Source: Wickerhamiella versatilis
Taxonomy: Eukaryota
Reading direction: 5' to 3'
DNA length: 64,000 nucleotides
Assembly: GCA_030867685.1 (NCBI GenBank)
Contig: JAQOWU010000007.1
Location: 1,054,001-1,118,000, forward strand
This document shows, piece by piece, positions 40,291 through 61,280 of this stretch. The notes under the pieces were generated by a model, which did not search any database, was not told the origin of the DNA, and worked only from the letters and a program-made list of their open reading frames with translations. Made by a program: the position numbers and the translations under genes. Numbering within the stretch: position 1 is the stretch's first letter; every line of letters begins with the position of its first letter.

Positions 40291-41301
40291 ATGAATAAAC
40301 AGAAAATGATGTTTGCTATGAGACTTCCTAGGATACACAGTCTACTTGAACCCGTACATGTGCCAGAGCCAGAACCGGGTCCTAATGAGGTTCGAATTAA
40401 GGTCAATGCCTGTGGAATATGTCGTACAGATCTTCATGTTGTCGATGGTGAGCTCGCACCGTCTACCAGGCAATTATCCCCTGTGATTCCGGGCCATCAA
40501 ATCGTTGGCAGGGTGGATAAATTAGGAACCGGTGTTACCGAATTATCTCTAGGTCAAAGAGTGGGGGTACCCTGGCTTGGAAGCACCTGTGGACATTGCT
40601 TTTTCTGCGAGCATCAGCAGGAAAATCTGTGCGATAAACCTGTTTTCACAGGATGTACTCGTGATGGTGGATACGCAGAGAAAGCAGTTGCAGACGTACA
40701 TTACACCTTTCCTCTCGGGGATGGTGGAGATGATGTTAAAATAGCTCCTTTACTTTGTGCTGGATTGATTGGCTGGAGGTCACTGAAGAAAGCAGGTGAT
40801 GCCCAGAAAATCGGGTTTTACGGGTTTGGTTCCGCGGCTCATATTCTTGCTCAAGTTCTGCGACATCAAGGCCGTGAGGTTTTTGCTTTTACTAGGGCGG
40901 GCGACCTTGAAACGCAAAAATTTGCCAGGTCTTTAGGAGCAAAATGGGCCGGTGGCTCTGATGAATTGCCCCCGGAGCTTCTTGATGCAGCTATTATTTT
41001 TGCTCCAGTAGGGCCTCTACTACCTGCTTCCTTAAAGGCTGTGCGTAAAGGTGGGCGGGTCGTTTGTGCTGGTATTCATATGAGCCAGATCCCAGCTTTC
41101 TCCTATGATGATCTTTGGGAAGAGAGGGAGATTCTCAGTGTTGCAAATCTAACTCGGGAGGATGGCATTGAGTTTCTGTCATTGGCACCTAAGATTGGCA
41201 TTGAGACAGAAACTTCGGTTTACAAACTACGTGACGCAAATCAAGCTCTTGACGATTTGCGCAATGGCCGCTTCACAGGTTCTGCCGTGGTTGTTCCATA
41301 A
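40291..41301 (+). CDS. Zinc-binding alcohol dehydrogenase, bacterial type (MDR family)
   Basis: 'ACGICRTDLHVVDGEL', 'IPGHQIVG', structural Zn 'CGHCFFC..ENLC', 'APLLCAGLIGWRSL', 'GFYGFGSAAH', 'DAAIIFAPVG', 'VCAGIHMS.IP.FSY..LWEER...SVANLTR.DG.EFL'; start could also be 40306 or 40309. Confidence 0.93.
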   Translation: MNKQKMMFAMRLPRIHSLLEPVHVPEPEPGPNEVRIKVNACGICRTDLHVVDGELAPSTRQLSPVIPGHQIVGRVDKLGTGVTELSLGQRVGVPWLGSTCGHCFFCEHQQENLCDKPVFTGCTRDGGYAEKAVADVHYTFPLGDGGDDVKIAPLLCAGLIGWRSLKKAGDAQKIGFYGFGSAAHILAQVLRHQGREVFAFTRAGDLETQKFARSLGAKWAGGSDELPPELLDAAIIFAPVGPLLPASLKAVRKGGRVVCAGIHMSQIPAFSYDDLWEEREILSVANLTREDGIEFLSLAPKIGIETETSVYKLRDANQALDDLRNGRFTGSAVVVP

Positions 41302-42123: not shown

Positions 42124-42668
42124 CATCTTCAAGTGAGATCTCATGCCGTGGGAAACCTTAGACTGGGATAACGTGAGCTGTTCAGATAGGAACAATAATA
42201 AAAAAATACACATACATCTAATTATTTTGCTCCATTGCTGTAGTAGCTTACATACAGCTTTCCGTGTGTGTATTGGGAAGCATTATCCCGATGCCGACTG
42301 AAGCTGGTTGTCAAACCATTTTAAGGTTCGGTCTAGGGTTTCGATGTGCGGGACCAAAAATAAGGGACGTCCGCTTTCCTAGAATTTACGGACAATTATC
42401 ATACAGAGCGGTCTCTAATATCTAATAACTCAAAAAAAATATATATCGAAGAATGCTCCTGGCAATTCTGTGATAACAGCGCTAAAGTGCTGGTAAGAGC
42501 TTGGGTATCTGTGACCCTGTAATACATTTGTGCATAGTAAAAAATAACGATACGCATACGTACTGTCTGCGCTTAATGTCATGGAGATGACCAGGAGGGT
42601 ATATTAAGTCTGAGCTGCCCATTATTGTGCATCACATGATGCAATTTCATTTGTCGGGATCATCCTCG

Positions 42669-45600
42669 ATGTTCCGACTCGTCACTCTTTGGTTATTTGC
42701 AGCACAGTTACCTGGTGCTCACGCCTGGTTTTGGTGTTGGGCTAATGGTAACTGGGGAGGACACTGTCAAGATGCCAGTTGCAATCAAGAATGTAATGGC
42801 TGCTGCATCACAGTAGACCACTCCTTCGAATATCGCCTCAAGAAAATATTCAAGAAACAGTACCACGCTAGTTGGGTTGTTTCTATGACGCAATGCCCAG
42901 AGACGGCATTGCTCACGGCAGTTCTGCCAAACTTTCAAACTTCGGTTATCACTACATCCCTTGATGCTACCTGTTGCGAAAATTCAACCCCACAAACGCA
43001 GACTCAAGGAAATCAAGTAGTCGAGAATACCATAGTACAGCAAGTTCCAGTTACCGTCACGCAGCAGGGTGTTACTGTCACTCAACCAGCCCAGACTATC
43101 ACCCAACAAGGAAGTACTATCACCCAGCCTGCACAAACAGTTACAGTTACAGGTCCTGGATCTACAATAGTGAATTCTCAGGTGGTTACTGAGCAAGGCC
43201 CAGGAACTACAGTAACACAACCTGGTAGTACGATCACACAGCCAGCATCTCAGACAACAGTATACGTTTCTCAGACTGTTACACAACCTGCAGCTCAACC
43301 AGATACAATTACTGTAACTCAACCAGGGCAAAATAGCCCTGCTGATACTGTTACGGTTACTCAACCGGGCTCAGCGGCAAGCCCATCTACTGTGACAATC
43401 ACAGCCCCGGGGTCGAATAGCCCCGCTGAAACGGTCACAGTAACTCAACCGGGCTCAGGAGCAAACCCATCTACTGTAACAGTCACAGCTCCGGGTTCGA
43501 ATGGCCCAGCTGAAACGGTCACAGTAACTCAACCAGGTTCAGGAGCAAATCCATCTACTGTGACAGTCACAGCTCCGGGTTCGAATAGCCCTGCTGAAAC
43601 GGTCACAGTAACTCAACCAGGCTCTGGAGCAAATCCATCTACTGTGACAGTCACAGCTCCAGGTTCGAATAGCCCAGCTGGAACGGTAACTGTTACTCAA
43701 CCAGGTTCAGGAGCAAACCCATCTACTGTGACAGTCACAGCTCCGGGTTCGAATGGCCCCACTGAAACTGTTACGGTTACTCAACCGGGCTCAGCGGCAA
43801 ATCCATCTACTGTGACAGTCACAGCTCCAGGTTCGAATAGTCCAGCTGAAACGGTCACGGTTACTCAACCAGGTTCAGGAGCAAATCCATCTACTGTCAC
43901 AGTCACAGCTCCGGGTTCGAATGGTCCCACCGAAACTGTTACGGTTACTCAACCAGGTTCAGGAGCAAACCCATCTACTGTCACAGTCACAGCTCCGGGT
44001 TCGAATGGCCCCACCGAAACTGTTACGGTTACTCAACCAGGTTCAGGAGCAAACCCATCTACTGTGACAGTCACAGCTCCAGGCTCGAATGGCCCAGCTG
44101 GAACGGTCACGGTTACTCAACCAGGTTCAGGAGCAAGCCCATCTACTGTGACAGTCACAGCTCCCGGTTCGAGTGGCCCCACTGAAACGGTCACGGTTAC
44201 TCAACCGGGCTCAGCGGCAAATCCATCTACTGTGACAGTCACAGCTCCGGGTTCGAATGGCCCCACTGCTACAGTTACAGTAACGCAACCTGGAGATACA
44301 GGAGGTGGCGGCACTTCTACGTTAACTGTCACGCAGCCTCAAAGTAGTTGCGGCGCACCGAGTACAGTAACGGTAACGTCTAATAGTGCTTTTTTATCGT
44401 CAACTGAGCTGGCTACTACACCTAGTGGCACCACCCCTACTGGTCTCACGAGTAGTAGCACCGGCTCTCCTTCTGTGTCTGTGCCGAGCGTGTGCATTTC
44501 GAATCTGCCTCAGGGTACCTCGATGTTTGGTTCGCCTGCTCAATGTGCATCATTCTGTAGTGAAGCTCAGCAGGCTTTTGAATCCTGCTCTAGTACTTCA
44601 AGTGTGAGTGGAAGCAGCTCACGGTCATGTATCTGCGATCTTACTACAAATTCCCAAGTTCAGCAGTGCTTTATATGCCGAGACTTTTATATTGATTCAC
44701 AAGTGGCTGGAGCTCCTTCGGGTACACCAGTGAGTGCTCTTCCTAGCGCTATCACTCAGGTCGCAACATTGTACTCGCAGCTCGTGTCTTCTTGTACCTC
44801 GTACTCATCATCCACGATATCGCTTTGCTTAAGCTCACCAGCCTCTTTGCCTTCTTCATTGACGACACAGCCATCTAGTTTGCAATCTCCTGGACCGTCT
44901 AGTGCTACCTCCCCATCCGCAGCTGAAACTTCTTCAGCCGTGCCTAGTTTGAGTGTTGTAACATCGAGACAAACATCGCTGCCAAATTCTGGCACTTCAA
45001 GCCAGCGAATTCCAAGTTCTTTGGTTTCACGCGCTTCAGAGACAAGCTCTCCTACACAGGAGAGCTTATCCACATCACCTGAAGGGTCTTTGACGACTAG
45101 CGCGCCAGAATCAACATTCTCTCAAACTGCTACGAACTCACTTTCGAGTCATCTTACTTACTCTAGTATTTCAAGTGTTGGAAGTGTTGAAACGAACAGT
45201 CAGGGCTTTACTTCATCAGCTGCTAATGGGTATACGAGCATTTTTAACTCGGCTAGTGTCTCTGTGAGTTCGTCAGGTCCATCAATAAATACTTCCGGAA
45301 TGTCTCCAGGGACTTATACCACTGAACTCACTGTTACAGTGACGTCCGTATCTGCGGGGACCACGTTATACTCGACAGTCCAGGGTACAACTCGTCCGGG
45401 TACCACGTTGTATTCGACATTGCCAATGTCCGTACTACCACCAGTAACATCTACTCGAGTTACAACGATAACTACAACATTCACAGTATCTGCTGGCTCG
45501 AGTGTACCAAGCTCAGGTATCCCTGTGTCTACTGTACCAGCCTCGAGCACCCAAGTGTCGAGCGGACCATATTCGAGCGGACCATATTCGAGCGGACCAT

Positions 45601-48600
45601 ATTCGAGCGGACCATATTCGAGCGGACCAGCTTCTAGCACCCCAGAGTCTACTGGACCGGCTTCTAGCGCCCCGGAGTCAAGCGGGTCGTATTCGAGCGG
45701 ACCAGCTTCAGGCACCCCGGAGTCGAGCGGACCAACTTCTAGCGCCCCGGAGTCGAGCGGACCAGCTTCAGGCACCCCGGAGTCGAGCGGACCAACTTCT
45801 AGCGCCCCGGAGTCAAGCGGAACATATTCGAGTGGACCAGTTTCAGGCACCGAAATATCTACTAGTCCTGCTACAGGGTGTATTACAGATATTCCTCAAG
45901 GCAGCAGTACTTTTGGAAGCGTCTCACAGTGTGGAACAGTATGCGGGTTTATCTTTTCAGAGTATTCTAATTGTAGAGGAAATGCGAACTGTATATGTGG
46001 TCTTACTTCGAGAATCAATCAATGTGCGGCTTGTCAAGCATTTTACTCGTATTCTGAAGTGAGCTCAAGTCTAGGTGGTGTGGCAGTACCTGCCATCACT
46101 GAAGTTGCAACGGTAATATCTGCCTTACAAGCTACATGCTCCTACACTCCAACACCGATTTCATTGTGTCTAGGTGGAAGTAACACAGGAGGTGTCTCCA
46201 CATACACGCCCACTGTAACAGTTATGCCAACAACGACACTCCCAGGTTCTACAAACACGGTACAAAACCCTGATAGCACTATTCAAGCATCAGCATCAAC
46301 AGAAAGTGTTCCTGGAGCAGATTCTACAATTGTAGGCACTACAGGTACTTTTACACTTCCAGAATCAACTATGACTGTAAATGGGTCTGTGGTCACGCTC
46401 ACAGGTCCCCTTTCTTCAGTGGTATCAACGATACCAATCTCAGTCACCGCGTCCAATATGGCAACTGTAAGTACACCGGTGCAGAGTAGTAGTCCTATCG
46501 GTCAGTCAACAGGTAGTTCAAAGACTTCACAGACACAGGCTATATCTTCTGTTGGTTCTAGTAATGTTTCAAGTGTCCCTACTACAGTTCCCTCTTCGGG
46601 TACAGTTTCAAGTTCGTCTTCAGTAAACCAGTCAGCTACGAATGGACAAACATCTGAAGAATCCTCACCAGAGTCAGTTTCTTCCTCTCTGACGAGTATC
46701 AGCAACCCGTCTCTCAATTACTATACTTCTACAATCGTATCTACGCTGATTTCTACGATTCCTGGTTCTGTGATTCAAGGATCTACAATCCCTGGGTCTA
46801 CCAGTGGTGGATACACTATTCCAGCATCGACTATTCCAGCATCCACTGTGGCAGGCTCTACTACTACAGTGCTATCTACTGTTACTACTAGGCTGCAGAG
46901 CTCACCATCACCGTCATCTCAGGGAGTTTCTAGCTCAAATTCCTCGCCAAATGCTGTTACGACTACAGACACGGCAGTTACTTCGTTGGTTACTTCTTTC
47001 CCACAGCAGATATCTTCAGAAGCGAGTGCACCAGAAAGCACGTCGGAGTCTCCAGCTAATAGCCCACCCATCAGTTACTTCACTTCTACAATTCTTTCTA
47101 CTCTATTTTCTACACTGCCTGGGTCTGTAGTTCAAGGATCAACTATTCCTGAGTCTACCAGTGGAGGATATACTATTCCAGCGTCGGTAATACCGGCCCA
47201 GACGGTGGCAGGAGGTACGACTACGATCCTATTGACTGTAACAACGTCACTTCAGAACTCGCCATCACAGGTAACAGAAGAAAACCCCAGCCAAACTACC
47301 ACATCTGGTACGAGTAGCGTGAATAGCGATGTGGAAAGCTCTATACCACTGAATACTATTACATCTACTGTTCCAGGTACCACAGTGGAACAATCAACGT
47401 TGGAAACCGGGGGGTCTACGGAAGTAATCTCTGGTACTACACGTGACCCCACTGTTGAGACAATTCTGTCAACAGTTTATCGCACGATATCCAGACAAGA
47501 TATATCTACGGACGTGTCTGTATCCTCTCAAGTTGATGGTGACACAACTAGGTACATTACTATGGTTCGAACCATAACACAAGGTAATGATCCTAATGAG
47601 CAAAATACTGCCACAGCAGTGGTACCGACCAGCACAGGCACCAGTACTAGACCTAATTCCGGTGACGGTGCTGCTGGAGGATCGGGATCCGGAGGTGGAT
47701 CAGGAGAAGCGACCGCCGGTGGTAACAATGCCTCTGCAGGAGGATCTGGCTCTGGAAATGGATCAGGAGAAGCGACCGCCGGTGGTAACAATGCCTCTGC
47801 AGGAGGATCTGGCTCTGGAAATGGATCAGGAGAAGCGACCGCCGGTGGTAACAATGCCTCTACAGGAGGATCTGGCTCTGGAAATGGAGCTAATGATCCT
47901 AATGGGCAAAATACTGCCACAGTAGTGGTACCGACCAGCACAGGCACCAGTACTAGACCTAATTCCGGTGACGGTGCTGCTGGAGGATCGGGATCCGGAG
48001 GTGGATCAGGAGAAGCGACAGCTGGTGGTAACAATGCCTCTGCCGGAGGATCTGGCTCTGGAAATGGATCAGGAGAAGCGACAGCTGGTGGTAACAATGC
48101 CTCTGCCGGAGGATCTGGCTCTGGAAATGGATCAGGAGAAGCGACAGCTGGTGGTAACAATGCCTCTGCAGGAGGATCTGGTTCTGGAAGTGGATCAGGA
48201 GAAGCGACGGCTGGTGGTAACAATGCCTCTGCAGGAGGATCTGGTTCTGGAAGTGGATCAGGACAAGCGACGGCTGGTGGTAACAATGCCTCTGCAGGAG
48301 GATCCGGCTCCGGAAATGGATCAGGAGAAGCGACCGCCGGTGGTAACAATGCCTCTGCCGGAGGATCTGGCTCTGGAAATGGATCAGGACAAGCGACCGC
48401 CGGTGGCAACAATGCCTCTGCCGGAGGATCTGGCTCTGGAAATGGATCAGGAGAAGCGACCGCCGGTGGCAACAATGCCTCTGCCGGAGGATCTGGCTCT
48501 GGAAATGGATCAGGAGAAGCGACCGCCGGTGGTAACAATGCCTCTGCAGGAGGATCTGGTTCTGGAAGTGGATCAGGAGAAGCGACGGCTGGTGGTAACA

Positions 48601-51600
48601 ATGCCTCTGCAGGAGGATCCGGATCTGGAAATGGATCAGGAGAAGCGAACGCCGGTGGCAACAGTGTATCTGCGGGAGCTTCAAGCCCTGAAAGTAGGCC
48701 AGCAGTCACTCCCGGAGTTTATACTTCTACTTACTATTCTACGAGGCTCTCAACCATTCCAGGATCGACGATTTCAGCTTCTGTTATCCCAGGAACGACT
48801 ATTGCAGGGTACAATGTACCAGGAACAACTATTCCAGGTTCCACACAAAGTGGGACCACATCATTAATGGTGGTCACAGTTACGGAGGTACTATCTACAA
48901 CACCCTCTGGATATGTGACTCTTAATTCGGGACAGGGAACTGAGAGCGCATCGTCAGTGCCAACTAGCGAAACGCTAGAGACCAATAGACCCACTACAGG
49001 TGAATCCTTCGCTCCTTCTGTTACCATGCCGGTAACGGCGTCTCTTCCAGTTAATACATCAGGTGAGGCCCCAGGAACATACACGACTACGATATTGACA
49101 ACAGTAACAGAGACACAGAGCCCAAGTACTATATTTACCACACTATCTGGTAGTCCTGTAGCTACTGGTTCACCGATATCAACGATTCAGGCGTCAACAG
49201 TGACAAATGTGCGTACGGTGACGATTGTTTATACAGTTGGATCTGAGACTGAAGCATCACCTACCGGAGCAGGAGCTTCTGCCTTTGCATCTGCATCTGC
49301 ATCTGCCTCTGCCTCTGCGGGCGCCTCAGCGCAGGCGTCTGTGTCTGTCCCCAGTCAAAATTCTCAACCTAATGGATCAGGGTCGGAAGGACCTGGTAAT
49401 TCCCGAGGCAATAGTCCTATTACTAGCACAATAACGACAACATTGCTTTCAACGCTTCCAGGATCTACAATTCCAGGATCTACAATTCCTGAGAGTACGA
49501 TTAATGGTAGAACAGTTCCAGGAAGTACTATCCCTGCGTCGACAGTTCCAGGGCAGACTAGTACATTAATCACTACTCTTACGACAGTGATAAGTGGTCC
49601 TGAATCGCCTTCTTCAAATGCGCCAGAATCGGCAGGGCCTAGTGGACCTAATGGACTTAGCGGCAGCATAACTGGTAACAGTCCTGTAACCAGTTTCATT
49701 GTCTCCACAATGACTAGTACAGGACCAGGGTCTACGATACCAGGGTCTACGATCCCGGAGAGTACGGTTAATGGCCAGACGATTCCAGGGAGTACGATTC
49801 CAGCCTCTACAGTTCCAGGAGGAGCTAGTACGTTTGTTAGTACTCTTACGACCGTCATCACTAGTCCTGAATCACATTCTTCTAATGTACCAAGTACGAT
49901 GGGGCCTCAAGTTTCAGAGTCTACTGGACCCAATGCACCGAGCTCGATAGGGCCTAATGGACCTAGCGGACCTAGTGGGTCAGAATTGACGGGACCCAAC
50001 AGCTCACAGACTAACGTTCCTGTTACTAGCACCATTGCCACTACACTGACTACATCAGGACCGGGCTCTACGATCCCAGGTTCCACGATCCCGGAGAGTA
50101 CGGTTAATGGTCAGACGATTCCAGGGAGTACCATTCCTGCCTCTACAGTTCCAGGAGGACTCAGAACATTCGTGAGTACTCTTACGACAGTAATCACAAG
50201 TCCTGAATCACCTGCTTCGAATGTACCAGGGTCGACAGGACCTAATGGACCTAGTGGGTCAGAATCAACAGGACCAAATAGCCCACAGAGTGGCAGTCCT
50301 ATCACTAGTACGATAGTTACAACACTCACTACATCAGGACCAGGTTCTACGATCCCAGGTTCTACGATACCGGAGAGCACGGTTAATGGTCAGACTGTTC
50401 CAGGGAGTACCATTCCTGCCTCTACGATTCCAGGAGGTGTTACTACATTTGTTAGTACTCTCACGACAGTCATCACAAGTCCTGAATCACCTTCTTCCAA
50501 TGCGCTAGGGTCAACAGGACCTAATGGACCCAGTAGGTCAGAATCAACAGGACCAAATAGTCCACAGAGCGGCAGGCCCATCACTAGCACTATTGCTACG
50601 ACACTCACCACATCGGGACCAGGTTCTACGATCCCAGGTTCTACGATCCCGGAGAGTACGGTCAATGGTCAGACTGTTCCAGGGAGTACCATTCCTGCCT
50701 CTACAGTTCCAGGAGGACTCAGAACATTCGTAAGTACATTCACAACAGTAATTACAAGCCCTGAATCGCCTGCTTCGAATGTACCAGGGTCAACAGGACC
50801 TAATGGACCTAGTGGGTCAGAATCAACGGGGCCTAACTCACCAAGCTCTGCAAGACCTAGTGGTTTAGAATCAACAGGACCAAATAGCCCACAGAGCGGC
50901 AGTCCTATCACTAGTACGATTGTTACAACACTCACTACATCAGGACCAGGTTCTACGATCCCAGGTTCTACGATCCCGGAGAGCACGATTAATGGTCAGA
51001 CTGTTCCAGGGAGTACCATTCCTGCTTCTACAGTTCCAGGAGGACTCAGAACATTCGTGAGTACTCTTACGACAGTAATCACAAGCCCTGAATCGCCTGC
51101 TTCGAATGTACCAGGGTCAACAGGACCTAATGGACCTAGGGGGTCAGAATCAACAGGACCAAATAGCCCACAGAGCGGCAGTCCTATCACTAGTACGATT
51201 GTTACAACACTCACTACATCAGGACCAGGTTCTACGATCCCAGGTTCTACGATCCCGGAGAGCACGATTAATGGTCAGACTGTTCCAGGGAGTACCATTC
51301 CTGCTTCTACAGTTCCAGGAGGACTCAGAACATTCGTGAGTACTCTTACGACAGTAATCACAAGCCCTGAATCGCCTGCTTCGAATGTACCAGGGTCAAC
51401 AGGACCTAATGGACCTAGGGGGTCAGAATCAACAGGACCAAATAGCCCACAGAGCGGCAGTCCTATCACTAGTACGATTGTTACAACACTCACTACATCA
51501 GGACCAGGTTCTACGATCCCAGGTTCTACGATCCCGGAGAGCACGATTAATGGTCAGACTGTTCCAGGGAGTACCATTCCTGCTTCTACAGTTCCAGGAG

Positions 51601-54600
51601 GACTCAGAACATTCGTGAGTACTCTTACGACAGTAATCACAAGCCCTGAATCGCCTGCTTCGAATGTACCAGGGTCAACAGGACCTAATGGACCTAGGGG
51701 GTCAGAATCAACAGGACCAAATAGCCCACAGAGCGGCAGTCCTATCACTAGTACGATTGTTACAACACTCACTACATCAGGACCAGGTTCTACGATCCCA
51801 GGTTCTACGATCCCGGAGAGCACGATTAATGGTCAGACTGTTCCAGGGAGTACCATTCCTGCTTCTACAGTTCCAGGAGGACTCAGAACATTCGTGAGTA
51901 CTCTTACGACAGTAATCACAAGCCCTGAATCGCCTGCTTCGAATGTACCAGGGTCAACAGGACCTAATGGACCTAGGGGGTCAGAATCAACAGGACCAAA
52001 TAGCCCACAGAGCGGCAGTCCTATCACTAGTACGATTGTTACAACACTCACTACATCAGGACCAGGTTCTACGATCCCAGGTTCTACGATCCCGGAGAGC
52101 ACGATTAATGGTCAGACTGTTCCAGGGAGTACCATTCCCGCATCAACAGTCCCAGGAGGACTTAGAACATTCGTGAGTACTCTTACGACGGTATTCACCG
52201 GACCAGCGCCTTCCACCAATAGAGGAACTACTACTTCTGGACCAACACCCCCTAATACTTCCCAGACCAGGCCAGTAACTTCCAGACTGCCAAGTGGTCA
52301 GACAGCGTCACCGAGTGTACCTTCTGGCTGTCTATCTAGCATTCCTGAAGGAACTGCTGCTATTGGTACCGTTGAAGAATGTATTACTGAATGTCAGTAC
52401 GTGATGCAAAGCTTCAGCTCATGTGGAAATGACAATTCATGTATTTCTGGACTTGTATCTCTAGAGGCTGTTGCGTCATGTGAAGTTTGCGTTTCCTTTT
52501 ATACCCAGGCAGTTGTGTCCAGTGAAATTTTTGTACCCACGGCTACCTATGTACCATCTTCGGTAGTCGTTCAGGCTACCTCAATATTCAGTGCAGTTGA
52601 AACTATTTACCAAACTCTTTTGAGCCAAGTTAATTATCCAACAGCATCAATATCTATGTGTGTTCCTTCGAATAGTCCTACAGGATCTCAACAGACAGGA
52701 TCTACAACGCCACTTACTGGTACATCAGGAACTACAGGACCCAACTCACCGGGCAATTCGAGACCCAACTCACCAGGGACTACAGGACCTAACTCACCGG
52801 GCAGTACGGGACCTAATTCACCAGGAACTACAGGACCTAACTCACCGGGCAGTACGGGACCTAATTCACCAGGAACTACAGGACCCAACTCACCAGGGTC
52901 TAGTGGACCTAACGCGCCAGGATCTTCGAGACCAGGTACGACAGGACCAAACAGGCCAGGGACTACAGGACCCAACTCACCAGGCAGTACGGGACCTAAT
53001 TCACCAGGGACTACAGGACCCAACTCACCAGGCAGTACGGGACCTAATTCACCAGGGACTACAGGACCCAACTCACCAGGCAGTACGGGACCTAATTCAC
53101 CAGGGACTACAGGACCCAACTCACCAGGCAATTCGGGACCCAACTCACCAGGGACTACAGGACCCAACTCACCGGGCAGTACGGGACCTAATTCACCAGG
53201 AACTACAGGACCCAACTCACCGGGCAGTACGGGACCCAACTCACCAGGATCTAGTGGACCTAATTCACCAGGCACTACAGGACCCAACTCACCAGGGTCT
53301 AGTGGACCTAATGCACCAGGATCCTCGAGACCAGGCACTACAGGACAAAACAGTCCAGGATCTACAGGACCCAACTCACCAGGGTCTAGTGGACCTAACG
53401 CGCCAGGATCTTCGAGACCAGGTACGACAGGACCAAACAGGCCAGGCACTACAGGACCCAATTCACCAGGCACCACAGGACCTAATTCACCAGGGTCTAG
53501 TGGACCTAATAATATCCCAGGATCTTCAGGACCTAACTCACCAAGCTTTACGGGACCTAGTACTCCTTTGAGCTCACGTGTGCCAAGTGGACAAACGGCG
53601 ACACCATCTATTCCATCTAACTGCATTTCTAGTATTCCGGAAGGGACCGCAGTTGTTGGAACTGTCGAGGAATGTGTTACAGAATGTCAGTATGTGGTAC
53701 AAAGCTTTCAGTCATGTAACGGTGATACTTCATGTATATCTGAGCTCGTATCCCTGACAGCTGTTGCATCCTGCGAAGTCTGTATTTCATTCTATAATGA
53801 AGCATTCATATCTAGTGAGGTTCTTGTGCCCACGGCTACTTATGCGCCATCAACGGTGGTTGTTCAGGCTACTTCAGTCTTTAGTGCAGTTGCGACTGTT
53901 TATCAGACTCTTGAGAGACAAGCAAGTTATCCTACGGGATCAATTTCACTGTGCTTCCCTTCTTCAACAGCTTCTCCTTCATCTCTAATGACGAGCCCTA
54001 CCTCAGGAAGTCTAGTACCAACTACAATCACAACCACTGTGACAACGGTACTTCCAGGTACGACAATATCACCGTCGTCCATACCTGTTTCTACTATTGG
54101 AGGAACTACTGTTCCAGCTAGTGAGGTTCCGATTTCCACCATTCCCCCAGGTACAGTCTCTTTTGTTACTACTATTACGACTTTGTTGCCTCCAGGACAA
54201 ACATATGTCTCCGTGAGTTTGAGTCAAGGCCAGACTGTGATATCTAACGGTAATACAGTTGTTATGTCCAATGCTCAATCGCAACCCCGGACAGGCTCGC
54301 TCTCCGAGGAAACGTCGCCAAGCCAGACATACTCAATGCCGAGGAGCTCTATAGAGAGTACTTCACCTCTTTCACCTTCCGGCCAAACCTCATCTCCTGC
54401 CAACACGGTACCTGGCTCATCTTCAGCGACAACACCCAATAGGCCGGCGTCAAGCTCTGTGCCCCCTTCGACGGGAATATCAACTCCTGGATATCAGCCA
54501 TCCACTCCCTGTATATCTAGCATCCCCCAAGGTACTAGCAATTTCGGTAGCCCTCAGGAATGTGTTTCAGTTTGTCAAAGCGCTTACCAGGATTTCAGAA

Positions 54601-57248
54601 GTAGTACCGGCGACATTTGTAATGTCGCAGGCTCAAGCCGAGTTACAACTTGTGAAATCTGCATTTCTTTCTATCAAAATTCCGAAATCAGCAGTCAATT
54701 ATATGCTTCCACGGCTACATACGGTATTGCAAGAACAGTAGAAACACAAATCAGTAGTGTTTCAAACCAATTGAGCTCCTACTTCTCATCGATTGCAAGT
54801 TCATGTTCCGTCTCTTCCGCGTCTGTATCAGTATGCTTACCTTCAACATCGGCCAACAGCCCTACTTCAAGCATACCTCAGTCCTCTTCACTTCCTAGGT
54901 CTTCACCATCACAACCGGTAAGCTCATCTCAAGTGAATTCTCAACCTGTCCCATCAAGCAGTCTGAGAGGTCCGAGTAGTCCAAGTGGCCCAAGTGGACC
55001 ATCGTCTGCTACTATAACAAGCTCACCTGCTAATAGTATCTCCACACAGTCACAGTCCCTACCCTCAAGCGTGGTTACGCCCACAGCTCCCACGCCTTGT
55101 ATTTCAAACATTCCTTCGGCAACTGCGTCAATTGGGTCACCACAAGAGTGTGTATCTATTTGCCAATCAGCATATCAGAACTATCAGAGTAACTCGAATA
55201 ATATTTGTGTCCTCACTTCTGAGAGCATCGTTTCACAATGTGATATATGCGTAAGTTTCTACCAAAATACTATTGTGAGTAGCTCCCTACTGCTGCCCCA
55301 GCCGACTGCTTTCGTTTCGCAGGTGTCCTCGGTCTTTAATCAGTTGTCACCACTATACTCGAGTTTGGTCCAGGTGTGTAACTATCCATCTGCGTCAGTG
55401 TCAGTGTGTGTTCCCTCATCCTCTTTACCTGGTTCGACAAACACAGGTACATCGTCACCGTCAACGCCTACCACACCAGGCACAGCGACGCCGTCGACAC
55501 CTACCACACCAGGGACACCTTCACCATCGACACCCAGCACCCCAGGTACACCAACACCTAGTACACCGGCCGCACCCAGTACACCGTCGACACCGGCTAC
55601 ACCGGCTACACCGACACCATCGACGCCAAGTACACCAGGCGTCGCATCACCGTCAACGCCAAGTACACCAGGGACACCGACACCATCGACGCCGACGACG
55701 CCAGCTACACCGACACCGTCGACACCGTCTACGCCAGCTACACCAACACCATCAACGCCAAGTACACCAGCTACACCGACACCGTCGACACCGTCTACGC
55801 CAGCTACACCAACACCATCAACGCCAAGTACACCAGCGACACCGACACCGTCGACACCGTCTACGCCAGCTACACCGACGCCATCGACACCGACGACGCC
55901 AGCTACACCAACACCATCAACGCCAAGTACACCAGCTACACCGACACCGTCGACACCGTCTACGCCAGCTACACCGACGCCATCTACACCGTCTACACCA
56001 TCTACGCCGGCTACACCGACGCCATCTACACCGTCTACACCATCGACACCGTCTACGCCGGCTACACCGACGCCATCTACAACACCGTCGACACCGTCTA
56101 CGCCAGCTACACCGACGCCATCTACACCGTCTACACCATCTACGCCGGCTACACCGACGCCATCTACACCGTCTACACCGTCGACACCGTCTACGCCGGC
56201 TACACCGACGCCATCTACACCGTCGACGCCGGCTACACCGGCTACACCGACACCATCAACGCCAACTACGCCAGCTACACCGACACCTTCGACACCGTCT
56301 ACGCCAGCTACACCGACGCCATCTATACCGACGACACCGGCTACGCCATCTACACCGACGACGCCGACAACTCCAACAACTCCTACGAGCTCAACACCAC
56401 AAAGTACAGCAACCACACCTGTCATACCTACTCCTTGTGTGTCAAGCCTTCCCCAAGGTACATCTGCGATTGGTAGCCCTCAACAATGTGTTCAACACTG
56501 CCGCGTGGTACAAGAGCGCTACGATGCCTGCCAAGGCTCTCAATCGGATAGCAACTGTGTGTGCATGGTTGCTTCGTTACAAGATACTGTAAATTGCGAT
56601 ATTTGTCGGTCCTACTATCTTCAGTCCGACGTGATAACACAAAGTGGAGAATCGTCCAGTGATATTAGTATCTTTCAAAATGTGGCATCTGCCTATTCGG
56701 CTTTTGACTCGCAGTGTCAGTACGGCGTGAACAGTGTCAGTGTGTGCTTCCCATCTACCACAAGCTCAGCTACTCCATCTTCAACTGCTTCCCTACCATC
56801 AACTACGCCTACAACTCCCACAACAACTTCTCGTATGACTTCTCCTTCACGGCCGCGTCTAACAACCATCACAGGTGGCCCTAGCGTCATTCAATCTGAA
56901 GCTACTATCACTTCATCGTATATCACCTCAACAGATATTTTTACAAATGAGGAATTTATGTCTGTACTTACTGTCCCAGGGTCAGTGGTCCCAGTAACAG
57001 TTGTTTCCGGTGCTGTTGTGTATTCAACAGCTACTGTGATGAACACGCAAGCTGCTGAATGCGTTGTAACTTATCAAAACTGTATGTATGGTGGTGAAAA
57101 ATGGGGTAAATGGGGCAAGTGGAAGTGGTTCTGGCTCAAGCATAAGCATTATGGTGGTCAAGCGCATTGTGTAACACAACTTCAATCTTGCAGATGTGGT
57201 GCCGGTCAAACTGGATATTGTGGAAATATACCAGCCCCAACCGCATAG
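42669..57248 (+). CDS. Giant secreted Ser/Thr/Pro-rich mucin/adhesin-like protein (~4,860 aa) with seven Cys-rich modules
   Basis: Uninterrupted 14.6 kb ORF; signal peptide [19 protein letters not shown] from ATG 42669 (upstream ATGs at 42636/42639 also in frame); multiple tandem repeat blocks; no hydrophobic C-terminal GPI signal. Confidence 0.9.
43340..44290 (+). repeat. 84-nt coding tandem repeat ([28 protein letters not shown], about 11 copies)
   Basis: Directly visible; built of two related 14-aa halves. Confidence 0.93.
45557..45840 (+). repeat. 15-nt SSGPY repeat and derived 30/60-nt SSGPxSxxPE repeats
   Basis: 'tcgagcggaccatat' x4 followed by related units. Confidence 0.88.
47587..48665 (+). 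repeat. 63-nt Gly/Ser/Ala/Asn coding repeat ([21 protein letters not shown], about 14 copies in two blocks)
   Basis: Directly visible; the NDPN..PNSGDG spacer is itself duplicated. Confidence 0.93.
49410..52200 (+). repeat. 279-nt (93-aa) megasatellite, about 10 copies, the last four or five near-identical
   Basis: Identical shadow ORFs recur at 279-nt spacing (50996, 51275, 51554, 51833). Confidence 0.95.
52730..53550 (+). repeat. 24-nt coding repeat (GPNSPG[ST][ST])
   Basis: Directly visible. Confidence 0.92.
55455..56400 (+). repeat. Thr-Pro-Ser/Ala low-complexity repeat (TPSTPATP)
   Basis: Directly visible; very C/A-rich. Confidence 0.92.
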
Positions 57249-57651
57249 ATATCTCTAATCTTCCCTTTGGATCTTCCGTAGAAATTCTCATTCTAAGTTG
57301 CTAATTCAAATCATTTTTATTATCAGTTGAATATATATGTTTTTTTTTATCTTTTACTTTTGCCAGTACCCAATTACACCCAATTACGATAAAGCATTCA
57401 TGGCTTGAGATTCACTATCCAGAATTCTAGGGCTCGCAATATAATTTGGTAATTTAAGGGGGGTTTTCATTAATTCCATTTTATACCATTTATAGATTCT
57501 AACAACTGTGAGTTATTTGTCACACATCAACTTCATTGTCCAGGAAAACTATGAGCTCATTGAAAGACATTTGTGCGAATTTTTTTAAAGCTCAAATGCG
57601 TAATGTAATTGTTATTGCGTTTCATGGAAATCTCAATGCTTATCTTTTTTC

Positions 57652-58707
57652 ATGTGGGCTAGGGCTGAGACAATGATGGACGTTTTTGTCACTGCCATAG
57701 CACATAAGTGCCTCGAGTTGGTGGCATTACTTGCGGCTCCTCAGTTCGACACTTCCAATACACTGTTAATAGACGATGATCAGAGTATTAAGGCGACACT
57801 GGCTCGTAGATTGATGGTGTGGGATTCTGTCCATTACTGTGCCCTAGCTCAACGTGGGGTCCAATACGAACATGAATATGCCTTCTGGAATTTGTGGCCA
57901 AAAATAATAAGGTTTGTGTGCCCAACAACGTCATTGATTGATCTCTCATTAACTAGTGCTGGTCTTAGCTTTCTTGCCCATCTTTGTGCAGTTGTTATAT
58001 TTTACCATTTGACAAAGAGCACACACCAAGACAGTGCACGCAATGCAGCGACTGCATATCTATTAAGCCCTGCAGGCTTGTTCTTAGTTGGTGGATATCC
58101 TGAAAGTGCCTTTGCATTAGCATGCTTTCTTGGCATTTTCCTGTTTCGACGGAAATATCGGGTTTTTGCGGGAGCAGTATTTGGATTTGCAACACTTTTG
58201 AGGTCGAATGGTTTGCTCTGGGGTTCATTGTTTGCCGTTGATTTTCTTCGAAAGCCAACTATGGGCACTTTCGTTGGTGGTAGCTTCATAGCCGTAGCAT
58301 TCATTTGGCCTCAATTCAAGGCATACCTACAGTGGTGTCCTGGGAGACCGTGGTGTGAATCTACAATACCCTTTATTTATAGCTATGTGCAGTCTCATTA
58401 CTGGAATGTTGGTTTTCTTCGATATTGGACATTCAATAATATTCCAAACTTTCTTTTCGGTCTGCCTACTATTTTAATACTCCTATTATCTCTTCCAGGC
58501 CAACCTCTTGATCTACAACTGGTCCAAGGTGCCATTCTTGTTGGTGCAATATTTTTCTGGCATGTGCAAATATTGACCCGTATCGCATCGTGCCTTCCCG
58601 GGCCTTATTGGTACATTGCCCGTGGAAACCGTCGTTGGCTGCTTTACTTTTCAGCTTGGACTCTGTCACAAGCTGTGCTTTACGGTTCGTTCTTACCTCC
58701 GGCTTAA
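57652..58707 (+). CDS. GPI18: GPI mannosyltransferase II (PIG-V); start may be ATG 57673
   Basis: 'FDTS', 'VWDSVHY', 'YEHEYAF', 'SPAGLFL..YPES.FA', 'RSNGLLWG', 'YSYVQSHYWNVGFLRYWT.NNIPNFLF', C-terminal 'FLPPA'. Confidence 0.93.
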   Translation: MWARAETMMDVFVTAIAHKCLELVALLAAPQFDTSNTLLIDDDQSIKATLARRLMVWDSVHYCALAQRGVQYEHEYAFWNLWPKIIRFVCPTTSLIDLSLTSAGLSFLAHLCAVVIFYHLTKSTHQDSARNAATAYLLSPAGLFLVGGYPESAFALACFLGIFLFRRKYRVFAGAVFGFATLLRSNGLLWGSLFAVDFLRKPTMGTFVGGSFIAVAFIWPQFKAYLQWCPGRPWCESTIPFIYSYVQSHYWNVGFLRYWTFNNIPNFLFGLPTILILLLSLPGQPLDLQLVQGAILVGAIFFWHVQILTRIASCLPGPYWYIARGNRRWLLYFSAWTLSQAVLYGSFLPPA

Positions 58708-58988
58708 TTATGGGTCATCGCCTCCCTACGTGTAGCCTCCTCGAGGAGTGTAGTGTCAACAGCGGTGGTGGGTAGATGTATGTATCTCACTACTGAGCCA
58801 CGAATAAAAAGATTCCGACAGGCCTTTAAAAAAGGGAATTTTGCTTCATCTGATACTGTAATGTCATCAAGGCGTATATTATGATATTGGTCCACAGATT
58901 TCAAGCTCCCTGTTACCTTCAGATTATTCTTCAGTTCGACGGTCAGTTCTTGACCGACGAGTGTCTTCATGAAGGAGAATAATAGCAT
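58704..58988 (-). CDS. LSM2: Sm-like protein Lsm2
   Basis: 'MLLFSFMKTLV..ELTVELKN..G.LKSVDQY.NI.L..FIRGSVVRYI..VDT.LLEEATRRE'. Confidence 0.95.
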   Translation of the reverse strand: MLLFSFMKTLVGQELTVELKNNLKVTGSLKSVDQYHNIRLDDITVSDEAKFPFLKACRNLFIRGSVVRYIHLPTTAVDTTLLEEATRREAMTHN

Positions 58989-59166
58989 ATTGCAATACTG
59001 ATGTGCCGATGACTAAACTAGATAATAAGCTTGTGATACTAGTCTATGGTTGTTTATCTTCAAATTCAGGAAAGCATATTGTATTTTCTATTATACTACA
59101 TATCAGCTGTAGCTGTGAGATAAATAATAAGATGAAGGGTGGAGAAACAGAAGCATTGTAAGACGA

Positions 59167-59754
59167 CTAATTAATAATTTCCATGAGACCCTGTTGTGCA
59201 AATCGTTGTACCTGTGAACGGCGAGCGTAGAAATATTGGTCTTTTCGTAACGTGATGACACCGTTCTCAGTGACAACATCGCCACCATCTACGAGAATAC
59301 GAACTTCGCAGTAGGCATCCTGGGGAGGCTCTAATGGAAACGTCAGGTCTGACTCCAAATATTCGCCTTTCAGTTCAGTAACTAAATTAGAATAGGCTCG
59401 AAGATAAGCAAGTTCCGGGGTATTGAGATGTGCACGGTTTAAAACCTTCTCGTCCCATACTTGTGCTTCGATCTTAGACGCACGAACACGATGGTACGCA
59501 CTAAGACACCTTTTATTTCGCGAAATACATGTTAAGAACAACACATAGGGGAGTTCTAACAACCTATTTTCGCCACCTAGCGAGTCGTTTCCGGATTCAC
59601 TAGCAGCGAGTCTGGCAGAGTTGGCTCGGTCTCGCTGGACTGCAATCTCACTAACAATTGCACGACGTAGATTCCACTGATACTCGGGTAGCTCCTCCAG
59701 CTCCTGCGTACGTTCAGCCTCATCCATCAACTTACTGGCAAATTCACAGAGCAT
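59167..59754 (-). CDS. PSF1: GINS complex subunit Psf1
   Basis: 'RNKRCLSAYH.VR', 'DLT.PLEPP.D.Y.EVRIL.DGG.V.TE.G...L.KD..FY.R'. Confidence 0.9.
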   Translation of the reverse strand: MLCEFASKLMDEAERTQELEELPEYQWNLRRAIVSEIAVQRDRANSARLAASESGNDSLGGENRLLELPYVLFLTCISRNKRCLSAYHRVRASKIEAQVWDEKVLNRAHLNTPELAYLRAYSNLVTELKGEYLESDLTFPLEPPQDAYCEVRILVDGGDVVTENGVITLRKDQYFYARRSQVQRFAQQGLMEIIN

Positions 59755-59756
59755 CA

Positions 59757-59762
59757 ACGCGT
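59757..59762. promoter_or_regulatory. MCB element (ACGCGT) directly before PSF1
   Basis: Exact hexamer 2 nt upstream of the ATG of a DNA replication gene. Confidence 0.45.
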
Positions 59763-59882
59763 CAAATACAAACCTTACCCTGTATTTGACTCTCGTCGAA
59801 CCTCCACATTCTATATGTGTGTGTGTGGAGTCTATGGAAGAAATTCAGTTCATACTTAAATATTTAGAGCTTCTTTTACCAT

Positions 59883-61232
59883 CTAAGCGAACAATGCAAA
59901 GTCTTTATCTACTACTGGCTCCGCCTTTTGCTCATCTTCGACGAATTCAGCATCATCCATTGTTATACCCCTGCCAAACAGGTTACTGAAGAGATCTTCA
60001 GCCTGTTCATCTGTCCAATTGAAGACATTTCGTGGTGCATCAAAGCCCTGAATCTTCTCCTGCACATGATACCGTAGCTTCCTACCTTTGGAGGCCTTCG
60101 TATCCACTTTCCTCTTGGAATGGGACTTGTCAACCTTGAAATTTATTCCTTGCGCAACATTGGGATCAGCCATCCGTCTTTCCACGAGATCCCTCAGGAG
60201 AAGTCGGTAAAAATCTGTATCGTCGAAAATATCGGTGGACTCGGCCGGAACTTCGCCATTGATATGGAAAGACGATCGATTGATATATGTTCTTCCGACA
60301 AGGCGTTCCATATCGGTAAGGACTGTATGAACCTGTTGGGTTGCAGACTGATTGAGACTTTTGAATTGATGCTGGAGTACACGTTGCCCACTGGAAAGCT
60401 GGACCTTTCGAGACCATTTAGTCAAAATAGAATCTCTGTTCGACCTGAGATCGCTGTCTAGTGTTTTAGTTAAGTCATCAAGTTCGTCAAGTCGATGCTT
60501 TCTTGGAAGTGCCTCTTTATTTCCAGTGAGTCTCTCGCGAAGAGATTGCATTTCGTAAATGAGATTTTTTAGCGCTTCTATGGCCTCATTTGAAGACTCG
60601 ACATCAGTATTTGTTACTGAAAGAATTTTTTGAACTGTGATACGGATGTCAAGTAGTTCCTCCCATATGGCCATCTGTGCCTGCACAGCGCAGCCCTTAG
60701 AGACATCAGCAGCTTGGTTCTCCTTTAACCGAGAAGCCATGTTTGCGTTTTCAGACTCCAATATTCTTTTCACTTCAGATATTTGTGTCCCTTGATTACC
60801 TTCTTTTGACGATTGCTCACCATCAGAGCTGTCAGAGTCATCTTCAATCCCTTGCTGGTCACTCATTGAAGTCAGTGAATCACTTTCATCATCATTTGAG
60901 CTTTCTTGAATCTCACTTTCGAAGTTATTCGGCCTCGCTCCCAGATCCAAACCAGAGGGGTCCGAAGAACTCGAGTCGCTATCAGAATTAGATGCTTCAT
61001 GGTCATTCATATTTTCACGGGATACTCGCTGGCCTTTGTATTTCTCGTTTTCTAGGTCAAGGTCATCATGACGGAGCCGACTGCGTCCTACGTCGATGTA
61101 ATGTGCTCGAGCCTGCTCAGCTTCATCGCCCGAAGATTCTGAACCTTCATCATTGTTGATGTTTTCAGGATCATTGTCCTCAGGCTCAGGATTCGCAAGA
61201 TCCGCCAACTTTTCCGATAGTGATTTCGCCAT
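59883..61232 (-). CDS. BFR2: SSU processome factor Bfr2/AATF
   Basis: 'HYIDVGRSRLR', 'KG.AV..Q...W..LLDIRI..QK', 'IFDDTDFYR.LLRDLVE', 'VDTKASKGRKLRY.V.EKI'. Confidence 0.93.
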   Translation of the reverse strand: MAKSLSEKLADLANPEPEDNDPENINNDEGSESSGDEAEQARAHYIDVGRSRLRHDDLDLENEKYKGQRVSRENMNDHEASNSDSDSSSSDPSGLDLGARPNNFESEIQESSNDDESDSLTSMSDQQGIEDDSDSSDGEQSSKEGNQGTQISEVKRILESENANMASRLKENQAADVSKGCAVQAQMAIWEELLDIRITVQKILSVTNTDVESSNEAIEALKNLIYEMQSLRERLTGNKEALPRKHRLDELDDLTKTLDSDLRSNRDSILTKWSRKVQLSSGQRVLQHQFKSLNQSATQQVHTVLTDMERLVGRTYINRSSFHINGEVPAESTDIFDDTDFYRLLLRDLVERRMADPNVAQGINFKVDKSHSKRKVDTKASKGRKLRYHVQEKIQGFDAPRNVFNWTDEQAEDLFSNLFGRGITMDDAEFVEDEQKAEPVVDKDFALFA

Positions 61233-61280
61233 CAAGAAATATTCCTATAAAAATTATATAATCAAATGTTTTTTTGAAGC

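What the first reader, a model, noticed from the sequence alone, without database searches (positions are those of the whole stretch)
42669..57248. A ~4,860-aa secreted yeast protein organised like a gel-forming mucin
Seen: one unbroken 14.6 kb ORF with a signal peptide, a Cys/Trp-rich N-terminal cap, long Pro/Thr/Ser blocks of at least six repeat types interrupted by seven homologous Cys-rich modules, and a Cys-rich C-terminal cap. The C-terminus (..[10 protein letters not shown]) has no hydrophobic GPI signal or TM helix. Known: typical yeast giant S/T proteins (Flo11, Als, Epa, Awp/Hyr, Msb2) are GPI- or TM-anchored with one N-terminal effector domain. Animal gel-forming mucins (MUC2/MUC5) are unanchored PTS tracts interspersed with CysD modules and polymerise through terminal Cys-rich domains. 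Inference: this may be a convergently evolved secreted matrix or slime protein that forms disulfide-linked polymers (biofilm, osmoprotection, host adhesion). It occupies about 23% of the window in an otherwise extremely compact genome.
Basis: partly seen in the sequence, partly recalled or inferred. Interest (0 to 1): 0.8.

Follow-up and report, generated by a model that had tools for sequence, protein, structure and literature searches.

The report
Giant unanchored yeast adhesin-like glycoprotein
A budding yeast has one real, weakly expressed gene for a huge secreted protein with no membrane anchor, built from sugar-coated linkers and two kinds of folded repeat, and it looks more like an unusual fungal sticking protein than like animal mucus.

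Summary
The 4,859-aa ORF is real. Repeat copies show purifying selection, RNA reads from two studies cover the 3' end without joints, and there is no GPI tail, whereas 8 of 8 control wall proteins of this genome have one. The mucin comparison holds for layout only. No VWD, CysD or cystine-knot domain is found. The seven modules are predicted helical and lose cysteines in pairs, so they bond internally. Their one credible homologue is a three-module, GPI-tailed Blastobotrys protein. About 1,050 'PTS' residues form 16 repeats modelled as long beta-hairpins (pLDDT 88). A Flo11 adhesin in the same genome also strings Cys modules between Ser/Thr linkers, and GPI-less fungal adhesins are known. The C-cap has six Cys, which can pair internally; only the N-terminal region has an odd count. 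Best reading (0.55): a secreted, two-ended, adhesin-like wall or matrix tether that binds back through Trp/Lys-rich ends. A covalent mucin-like gel gets about 0.15. Expression was low, and one contig of a relative carries a frameshift before the C-cap. This scan had no look-alike on other DNA. New variant of a known kind, with two undescribed repeat modules.

The parts
42669..57248 (+). Whole ORF, 4,859 aa plus stop (possible upstream in-frame start at 42636)
   Evidence: 3' end transcribed
42669..42725 (+). Signal peptide, residues 1-19 (inferred from hydropathy and the Ala-x-Ala rule)
42726..42989 (+). N-cap, residues 20-107: 9 Cys (odd; two CC pairs), 5 Trp, a Lys-rich segment; no family, single copy in the genome
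42990..43346 (+). Thr/Gln/Val pentapeptide-patterned segment, residues 108-226 (beta-prone, inferred)
   Evidence: sequence
43347..44354 (+). 12 copies of a 28-aa Thr/Val/Pro/Gly repeat (pN/pS 0.32), ending in the lone Cys561 (44349-44351)
44493..44828 (+). Cys module M1 (10 Cys)
45306..45497 (+). Divergent beta-hairpin unit 1
   Evidence: 40 bits; best shuffled score 4.2
45546..45848 (+). Ser/Gly/Pro short repeats (5/10/15/20-aa periods)
45879..46169 (+). Cys module M2 (10 Cys)
46713..47267 (+). Beta-hairpin units 2 and 3 with a Ser-rich linker
47646..48662 (+). Gly/Ala/Asn/Ser block: 13 copies of a 21-aa unit (pN/pS 0.25), 22 of the 32 N-x-S/T sequons
48711..49247 (+). Beta-hairpin units 4 and 5
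49410..52211 (+). Ten tandem beta-hairpin units at 89-112-aa spacing (pN/pS 0.19); the unit models as a long bulged hairpin, mean pLDDT 88
52329..52661 (+). Cys module M3 (8 Cys; lacks Cys6 and Cys9)
52716..53558 (+). 8-aa Gly/Pro/Asn/Ser/Thr repeat, 23 copies counted (pN/pS 0.19)
53622..53954 (+). Cys module M4 (8 Cys; 72% identical to M3, pN 0.17, pS 0.65)
54006..54203 (+). Beta-hairpin unit 16
54510..54836 (+). Cys module M5 (8 Cys; lacks Cys4 and Cys5)
55098..55409 (+). Cys module M6 (8 Cys; lacks Cys4 and Cys5)
55440..56423 (+). True mucin-type Pro/Thr/Ser/Ala tract, about 330 aa
56436..56747 (+). Cys module M7 (10 Cys); modelled as a helical bundle, mean pLDDT 66
56886..57053 (+). Val/Thr-rich beta-prone segment before the C-cap (most hydrophobic 19-mer, KD 1.92; not helix-like)
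57054..57245 (+). C-cap: 6 Cys (two Cx6C, then Cx7C) around a Trp/Lys/His-rich loop; no GPI signal

Best explanation
A secreted, GPI-less, adhesin-like wall or matrix glycoprotein that works as a long two-ended tether. Shown: one transcribed gene, no anchor tail, repeats under purifying selection. Predicted: seven self-contained disulfide-locked helical modules and 16 long beta-hairpins spaced along the chain. Inferred: after secretion the Ser/Thr linkers are O-mannosylated and the Gly/Asn block is densely N-glycosylated, giving an extended hydrated chain of probably over 1 MDa. The two Trp/Lys/His-bearing caps bind wall polysaccharide or an outside surface, and the odd Cys of the N-terminal region may tie that end to a wall protein or to a second copy. 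The hairpins add Thr/Val/Ile-rich beta edges for weak side-to-side sticking. The result is cell-cell or cell-surface bridging and an outer coat held by rebinding and entanglement, not by end-to-end covalent polymerisation.
For: All 11 Trp and 10 of 11 Lys lie at the two ends, signal peptide included. The module's only credible homologue among 1.84e9 representatives is Blastobotrys adeninivorans ARAD1D46508p: 519 aa, three 10-Cys modules, GPI-like tail KD11 3.2 (hhalign probability 84.8, E 6.6e-6). Paired Cys loss: Cys4+5 in M5 and M6, Cys6+9 in M3 and M4. Hairpin model pLDDT 88; beta-sheet repeats are modelled for Als and Flo1 adhesins (PMC6023273, passages). The same genome's Flo11 adhesin uses the same module-in-linker layout. 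Precedents without GPI: Bad-1 (secreted, rebinds through a C-terminal Cys domain, binds ligand with Trp and basic residues) and fission-yeast Map4/Mam3 (PMC6023273 sections 10 and 12).
Against: No localisation, binding or phenotype data. The caps match no known carbohydrate-binding family. The N-cap/C-cap likeness is marginal (212 of 5,000 shuffles reach the score; BLAST E 4.7). The homology rests on one protein at E 1.4e-4. 3'-end RNA depth is only 14x and 12x against 112x and 126x for the neighbouring PIG-V/GPI18 gene. One contig of a relative has a one-base loss in M7 that would remove the C-cap. The genome already holds at least six canonical adhesin-domain matches.
Confidence: 0.55

Rival explanations
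1. Convergent gel-forming mucin analogue: monomers join by intermolecular disulfides through the terminal Cys regions into long polymers that swell into a slime.
For: No anchor; 67% of residues fall in PTS-like windows (threshold S+T over 40% and P over 5% per 100 aa, set by me from recall). Roughly 110-aa, 10-Cys modules are interspersed as CysD is in MUC2/MUC5 (layout in PMC4948705, passages). The N-cap has 9 Cys, plus a lone Cys561: two possibly free thiols, enough in principle for a chain. A dense N-glycan block could hold water.
Against: The C-cap has an even six Cys in a pattern that can close on itself. The modules pair internally, have no Trp and are helical. No VWD, C8, TIL, Mucin2_WxxW or cystine-knot match. 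Transcript level is low for a bulk gel in the two RNA runs. A relative may lack the C-cap.
Confidence: 0.15
2. Non-covalent self-assembling film or fibre protein: the 16 beta-hairpins and Thr/Val strands zip edge to edge (amyloid-like or sheet-like) to build a pellicle or biofilm scaffold; the caps are secondary.
For: Confident hairpin model with free edges; 23 runs of seven or more beta-prone residues; ten near-identical tandem units; beta-aggregation is common in fungal adhesins (PMC6023273); holders of the DNA are mostly food-fermentation metagenomes.
Against: Regular prolines and probable O-mannose on Thr/Ser would hinder edge pairing (inference). AlphaFold confidence for an isolated hairpin (pTM 0.43) does not show stability or assembly. 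No aggregation predictor or dye assay was run.
Confidence: 0.13
3. Multivalent scavenger: the helical Cys modules are distant CFEM/CAP22-type ligand binders (haem, sterol, lipid or metal) displayed on a flexible string.
For: The core Cys order C-x3-C-x9-C...CxC...CxxC...C resembles the CFEM consensus in its first five cysteines (consensus from PMC13586796). An Asp lies three residues before the fifth module Cys in M3, M4 and M7 (alignment). The Atlas features point to CAP22 clusters (0.81 and 0.76; lead only).
Against: Strict and Cys-only CFEM patterns match 0 of 7 modules and 0 of 3 Blastobotrys modules. hhalign to this genome's own CFEM protein gives probability 0.2. The Asp is absent in the Blastobotrys modules. 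The modules are 17% of the chain (832 of 4,859 residues).
Confidence: 0.09
4. A former GPI adhesin that lost its anchor and is now dispensable or decaying.
For: The homologous module occurs in a GPI-tailed protein. One contig of a relative shows a frameshift in M7, and 7 of the 12 listed substitutions in this part of the gene change the amino acid. Expression is low.
Against: 14.6 kb without a stop; pN/pS 0.19-0.32 between repeat copies; the C-cap is an ordered Cys/Trp domain, not a frameshift tail, and no GPI-like tail lies in the other + frames after 56700; 19 of 24 listed runs hold half or more of the words of 53600-57400.
Confidence: 0.08

Closest known systems
GPI-less fungal adhesins: Blastomyces Bad-1; fission-yeast Map4/Mam3 (DIPSY/lectin family)
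   Same: Signal peptide, no GPI signal, tandem repeats, Cys-bearing C-terminal domain; Bad-1 uses Trp and basic residues for binding (PMC6023273, sections 10 and 12 read)
   Different: No DIPSY, lectin or EGF-like chitin-binding match; about twice the upper size quoted for typical adhesins (600-2,500 aa); two unrelated folded repeat modules; Trp/Lys patches at both ends
Blastobotrys adeninivorans ARAD1D46508p (UniRef100_A0A060TDS9)
   Same: Homologous 10-Cys helical module, three tandem copies, followed by a Ser/Thr/Pro stalk
   Different: 519 aa with a GPI-like tail; modules about 80 aa; no hairpin arrays or caps; not mentioned in any paper of the library
GPI-anchored yeast adhesins (Flo11, Flo1, Als, Epa), including this genome's 2,586-aa Flo11 protein
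   Same: Ser/Thr-rich repeat stalk and beta-prone repeats; the local Flo11 also carries eight Cys modules between linkers
   Different: No Flo11, PA14/GLEYA or Als head and no GPI tail; the local Flo11 module is unrelated (hhalign probability 0.2)
Gel-forming mucins MUC2/MUC5AC/MUC5B
   Same: Unanchored; PTS tracts interrupted by roughly 110-aa Cys modules; Cys-rich ends; similar length
   Different: No VWD-C8-TIL, no WxxW CysD, no cystine knot (definition in PMC4948705); modules helical; part of the tract folded; yeast glycans are mannose-type (established knowledge)
CFEM domain (PF05730) and CAP22 (PF28223)
   Same: Small helical, disulfide-locked fungal extracellular domains with C-x3-C and CxC motifs; CAP22 is secreted to the appressorial wall (PMC6064131, passages)
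   Different: CFEM consensus not matched; two extra outer Cys; the CAP22 link is a feature-space lead under 0.9 and could not be tested by HMM

Membership tests
Gel-forming mucins | Three N-terminal VWD-C8-TIL units | tested here: not met
   No Pfam family on the whole protein or the N-cap; the N-cap is about 90 aa; definition from PMC4948705
Gel-forming mucins | CysD (Mucin2_WxxW) domains inside PTS | tested here: not met
   Modules have no Trp, no Pfam hit, helical model
Gel-forming mucins | C-terminal cystine knot | tested here: not met
   C-cap has 6 Cys and no Pfam hit
Gel-forming mucins | Long PTS tracts, secreted, no anchor | tested here: met
   67% PTS-like by my window rule; tail KD11 0.13
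Gel-forming mucins | Intermolecular disulfide polymerisation and gel formation | not testable with these tools
   Needs biochemistry; only the N-terminal region has an odd Cys count
GPI-anchored yeast adhesins (Flo11/Flo1/Als/Epa) | C-terminal GPI signal | tested here: not met
   KD11 0.13 against 2.35-3.08 in 8 of 8 controls; no alternative exon or frame seen; no dedicated GPI predictor run
GPI-anchored yeast adhesins (Flo11/Flo1/Als/Epa) | Known N-terminal binding domain | tested here: not met
   0 Pfam hits; the Flo11 and GLEYA models ring elsewhere in the genome but not here
GPI-anchored yeast adhesins (Flo11/Flo1/Als/Epa) | [quoted passage not shown] | tested here: met
   feature list from PMC6023273
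GPI-less fungal adhesins (Bad-1, Map4/Mam3 type) | Signal peptide, repeats, no GPI, Cys-bearing C-terminal domain | tested here: met
GPI-less fungal adhesins (Bad-1, Map4/Mam3 type) | DIPSY, lectin-like or EGF-like chitin-binding C-terminal domain | tested here: not met
   C-cap has no Pfam or NCBIfam hit
GPI-less fungal adhesins (Bad-1, Map4/Mam3 type) | Rebinding to the wall and adhesion phenotype | not testable with these tools
   Needs localisation and knockout
CFEM (PF05730) | Eight-Cys consensus PxC[A/G]x2Cx8-12Cx1-3[x/T]Dx2-5CxCx9-14Cx3-4Cx15-16C | tested here: not met
   0 of 7 modules (consensus from PMC13586796); hhalign probability 0.2
CFEM (PF05730) | Helical-basket fold | tested here: inconclusive
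   Model pLDDT 66; best Z 8.0, to generic helical bundles
CAP22 (PF28223) | Match to the family profile | not testable with these tools
   Model not in the library; Atlas score 0.81 with 151 of 256 features shared is a lead only; the Blastobotrys module gave no feature hit
Hydrophobins | C-CC-C-C-CC-C eight-Cys pattern | tested here: not met
   Pattern (recalled) not matched although the N-cap has two CC pairs; no Pfam hit
Pir wall proteins | PIR internal repeat and Kex2 site | tested here: not met
   No PIR motif (recalled pattern) and no KR or RR in the whole protein

The most novel reading that the evidence does not exclude
The protein is a yeast-invented hydrogel former, functionally convergent with gel-forming mucins but built from unrelated parts. 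It would link covalently through the two spare thiols of its N-terminal region and non-covalently through Trp/Lys-rich ends and beta-hairpin edges, into a mannosylated network that protects cells in high-salt or high-sugar fermentations.
Probability: 0.18. Interest if true: 0.8.

Novelty: new variant of a known kind. Interest (0 to 1): 0.5.

Why it matters
It adds a GPI-less, two-ended design to budding-yeast surface proteins, which are mostly read through Flo/Als/Epa-type heads and GPI tails; screens that require a GPI signal would miss it. It defines two undescribed repeat modules: a 10-Cys helical domain shared with a Blastobotrys GPI protein, and a roughly 57-aa bulged beta-hairpin hidden in sequence that composition filters call disordered PTS. 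That second point is a caution for calling any Ser/Thr/Pro tract mucin-like. If it did form a gel, it would be a fungal route to a mucus-like material, testable in a food-associated yeast.

Tried and rejected
Mis-assembly or chance frame: rejected. Hidden GPI exon or frameshift near the C-terminus: no joints or indels in the two RNA runs or the same-species contig over 56372-57248, and no hydrophobic tail in other + frames. Alternative CUG code: CTG aligns with Leu in paralogous positions. Two of the three profile hits were dropped: P0002 (perfect tandem repeat, no matched stretch) and P0003 (fibronectin-III-like array with a phosphatase-like tail, by my reading). Word-indexed searches found nothing further: C-terminal region among 2,672-8,504-aa proteins, module alignment among 218-2,000-aa proteins (which also missed P0004, so weak), P0004 only itself. 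Metagenome scans with M7+C-cap and with the N-cap found no relative. PDB sequence search: no hit. Fold searches of the module gave only generic helical bundles, and no CFEM chain was among the listed rows. Fold searches of the hairpin gave only weak generic long hairpins, best Z 4.3, rmsd 8.7. The Atlas structure search of the Blastobotrys module gave no named family; the C-cap could not be run in the Atlas. The N-cap homodimer prediction returned 'no answer'. No indexed holder run is on record as RNA. N-cap and C-cap as homologues: not significant. The C-cap Trp segment recalls fungal alpha-pheromone peptides (recalled resemblance), but the protein has no KR or RR site. The N-cap Cx4C and CP motifs recall Aga1/flocculin type-3 repeats, but PF13928 does not ring here. 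The Als head model rang nowhere, controls included. Literature: no paper on this protein or on a fungal gel-forming-mucin analogue came up in searches; the library lacks most subscription journals, and no supplements were read. PMC3828140 and PMC13376923 (passages) added nothing on this protein.

Full report
Setting. The window is part of a 9.88-Mb, 8-contig yeast assembly, about 88% coding here, with a median gap of 269 bases by my gene list. A bacterial-type alcohol dehydrogenase lies two genes upstream (TIGR02822, 310 bits against a cut-off of 283.5). Bacterial Adh genes mark the Wickerhamiella/Starmerella lineage (PMC13376923, passages; PMC5897096, search listing only), and earlier notes of this scan said the same. 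I take the lineage as likely and name no species. The neighbours are housekeeping genes (PIG-V/GPI18, PSF1, BFR2, LTV1 and a Rab by Pfam; gene names are my reading) and say nothing about function.

The gene is real. Frame +1 of 42669-57248 has no internal stop, against 119-517 stops in each of the other five frames. Differences between repeat copies are mostly synonymous: pN/pS is 0.32, 0.25, 0.19 and 0.19 for the 28-aa, 21-aa, hairpin-core and 8-aa repeats, and M3 against M4 gives pN 0.17, pS 0.65. Of 24 listed runs, 20 hold the stretch 53600-57400 and 19 hold half or more of its words; the holders come from 11 studies, mostly food and fermentation samples. I laid 4 of the 24 runs on 56372-61300. 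Both RNA runs, from two studies, cover the last 880 coding bases, and depth falls to 1-2x before the next gene. No joint and no indel is listed in the gene for these runs or for the same-species contig, which may be this DNA's source. Mean depth is 14x and 12x, against 112x and 126x for PIG-V, 48x and 102x for PSF1, and 127x and 20x for BFR2. The gene is thus expressed weakly in those conditions.

No anchor. The last 25 residues reach a KD11 of 0.13. As a control I fetched the loci of the two Flo11 matches, the four GLEYA matches and one weak flocculin match, and added the CFEM locus. All 8 Ser/Thr-rich ORFs printed have tails of 2.35-3.08 (ORFs under 25% Ser+Thr, including those of L012, were dropped by the script). 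The other + frames after 56700 offer no tail either.

The Cys modules. Seven modules of 97-112 residues between the outer cysteines share ten Cys columns. M1, M2 and M7 have all ten. M3 and M4 lack the sixth and ninth together; M5 and M6 lack the fourth and fifth together. Paired loss points to intramolecular bonds and leaves no spare thiol. AlphaFold2 on the seven-row alignment gives a helical bundle with short terminal strands, mean pLDDT 66, with no significant PDB match. A profile search of 1.84 billion representatives gave 3 hits at E up to 0.001. Two are repeat artefacts. The third is Blastobotrys adeninivorans ARAD1D46508p, with three tandem 10-Cys modules of matching spacing, a Ser/Thr/Pro stalk and a GPI-like tail (hhalign probability 84.8). 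So the module is a yeast surface-protein domain. The Atlas offered CAP22 clusters at 0.81 and 0.76, a lead only; the Blastobotrys module gave no such hit. The CFEM consensus (PMC13586796, passages) is not met.

Hidden hairpins. Much of the 'PTS' sequence has a symmetric grammar: a 12-residue Thr/Val/Ile strand, three Pro-containing pentapeptides, a turn, three more pentapeptides and a second strand. A profile of 13 units finds 16 at 40-93 bits, while the best score on 200 shuffles is 4.2 (the 13 training units match by construction). AlphaFold2 models the unit as a long bulged beta-hairpin, mean pLDDT 88, with 44 of 66 residues at 90 or more, pTM 0.43. No solved structure matches beyond Z 4.3. 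Two weaker copies sit in an unlinked 249-aa secreted-type ORF of the same genome. About 1,050 residues are thus probably folded. Beta-sheet repeats are an adhesin trait (Als, Flo1; PMC6023273, passages), not a trait of mucin PTS domains (established knowledge).

Other parts. A 340-residue Gly/Ala/Asn/Ser block holds 22 of 32 sequons and would carry dense N-mannan (inference). All 11 Trp and 10 of 11 Lys lie at the two ends. The N-cap has nine Cys and there is one lone Cys at 561; the C-cap has six. Neither cap has a family or a paralogue in this genome with these queries, and their mutual likeness is marginal.

Comparison. Gel-forming mucins are defined by VWD-C8-TIL units, PTS, often CysD with WxxW, and typically a cystine knot (PMC4948705, passages). 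Only PTS and the lack of an anchor are met. The module-in-linker layout also occurs in this genome's 2,586-aa Flo11 adhesin, with eight copies of an unrelated six-Cys module and a GPI-like tail. GPI-less adhesins exist: Bad-1 is secreted and binds back through a C-terminal Cys domain, with Trp and basic residues as binding sites, and fission-yeast Map4 and Mam3 have Ser/Thr repeats, no GPI signal and a C-terminal domain (PMC6023273, sections 10 and 12 read). The protein works most plausibly like these but is not a member of any of their families.

Against my reading. Nothing shows wall binding or adhesion. The homology is to one protein. In one contig of a related organism (X20, depth 11) a one-base loss at 56610 would end the chain seven residues later, inside M7, and 7 of the 12 listed substitutions in this part of the gene change the amino acid (18 further differences over the whole stretch were not shown). 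If real, the C-cap is dispensable there, which weakens both the two-ended tether and the polymer model. Two spare N-terminal thiols keep the covalent polymer possible.

Verdict. Observation confirmed, interpretation partly supported. Tether or coat adhesin-like protein 0.55; covalent mucin-like gel 0.15; non-covalent beta-hairpin film 0.13; ligand scavenger 0.09; decaying remnant 0.08. New variant of a known kind; interest 0.5. No look-alike was noted on other DNA in this scan. Supplements of the cited papers were not read and might list this gene among secreted or expressed proteins.

Noticed in passing
L013 63-7823 (G000:C7 near 137,900-145,600, +): 2,586-aa Flo11-domain adhesin with a GPI-like tail and eight copies of a roughly 185-aa six-Cys, Leu-rich (probably helical) module between Ser/Thr linkers; no Pfam family over cut-off fits the module convincingly.
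   Followed up: partly
L012 2316-3065 (-) (G000:C7 near 2,399,000): 249-aa secreted-type ORF without a GPI tail that carries two copies of the same pentapeptide hairpin grammar; also seen in Logan and ENA contigs.
   Followed up: partly
window 40291-41301 (+): Bacterial-type zinc alcohol dehydrogenase (TIGR02822 over cut-off), probably horizontally acquired.
   Followed up: partly
window 56610, run X20: One-base loss inside module M7 in a single contig of a related organism; it would truncate the protein before the C-cap.
   Followed up: partly
window 57060-57221: Trp/Lys/His-rich loop held between two Cx6C segments; recalls pheromone or membrane-active peptides (recalled resemblance), but there is no Kex2 site.
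   Followed up: partly
L015-L018 (G000 C8, C4, C3, C7, each within about 60 kb of a contig start): Four GLEYA-domain adhesin genes with GPI-like tails near contig starts.
   Followed up: no
L019 (G000:C1 near 680,000, -): 1,203-aa GPI-tailed Ser/Thr protein with repeated two-Cys hairpin-like motifs, weakly like flocculin type-3 repeats.
   Followed up: no
window 62484-63899 (-): Aspartyl protease with a GPI-like tail (yapsin-like, my reading).
   Followed up: no
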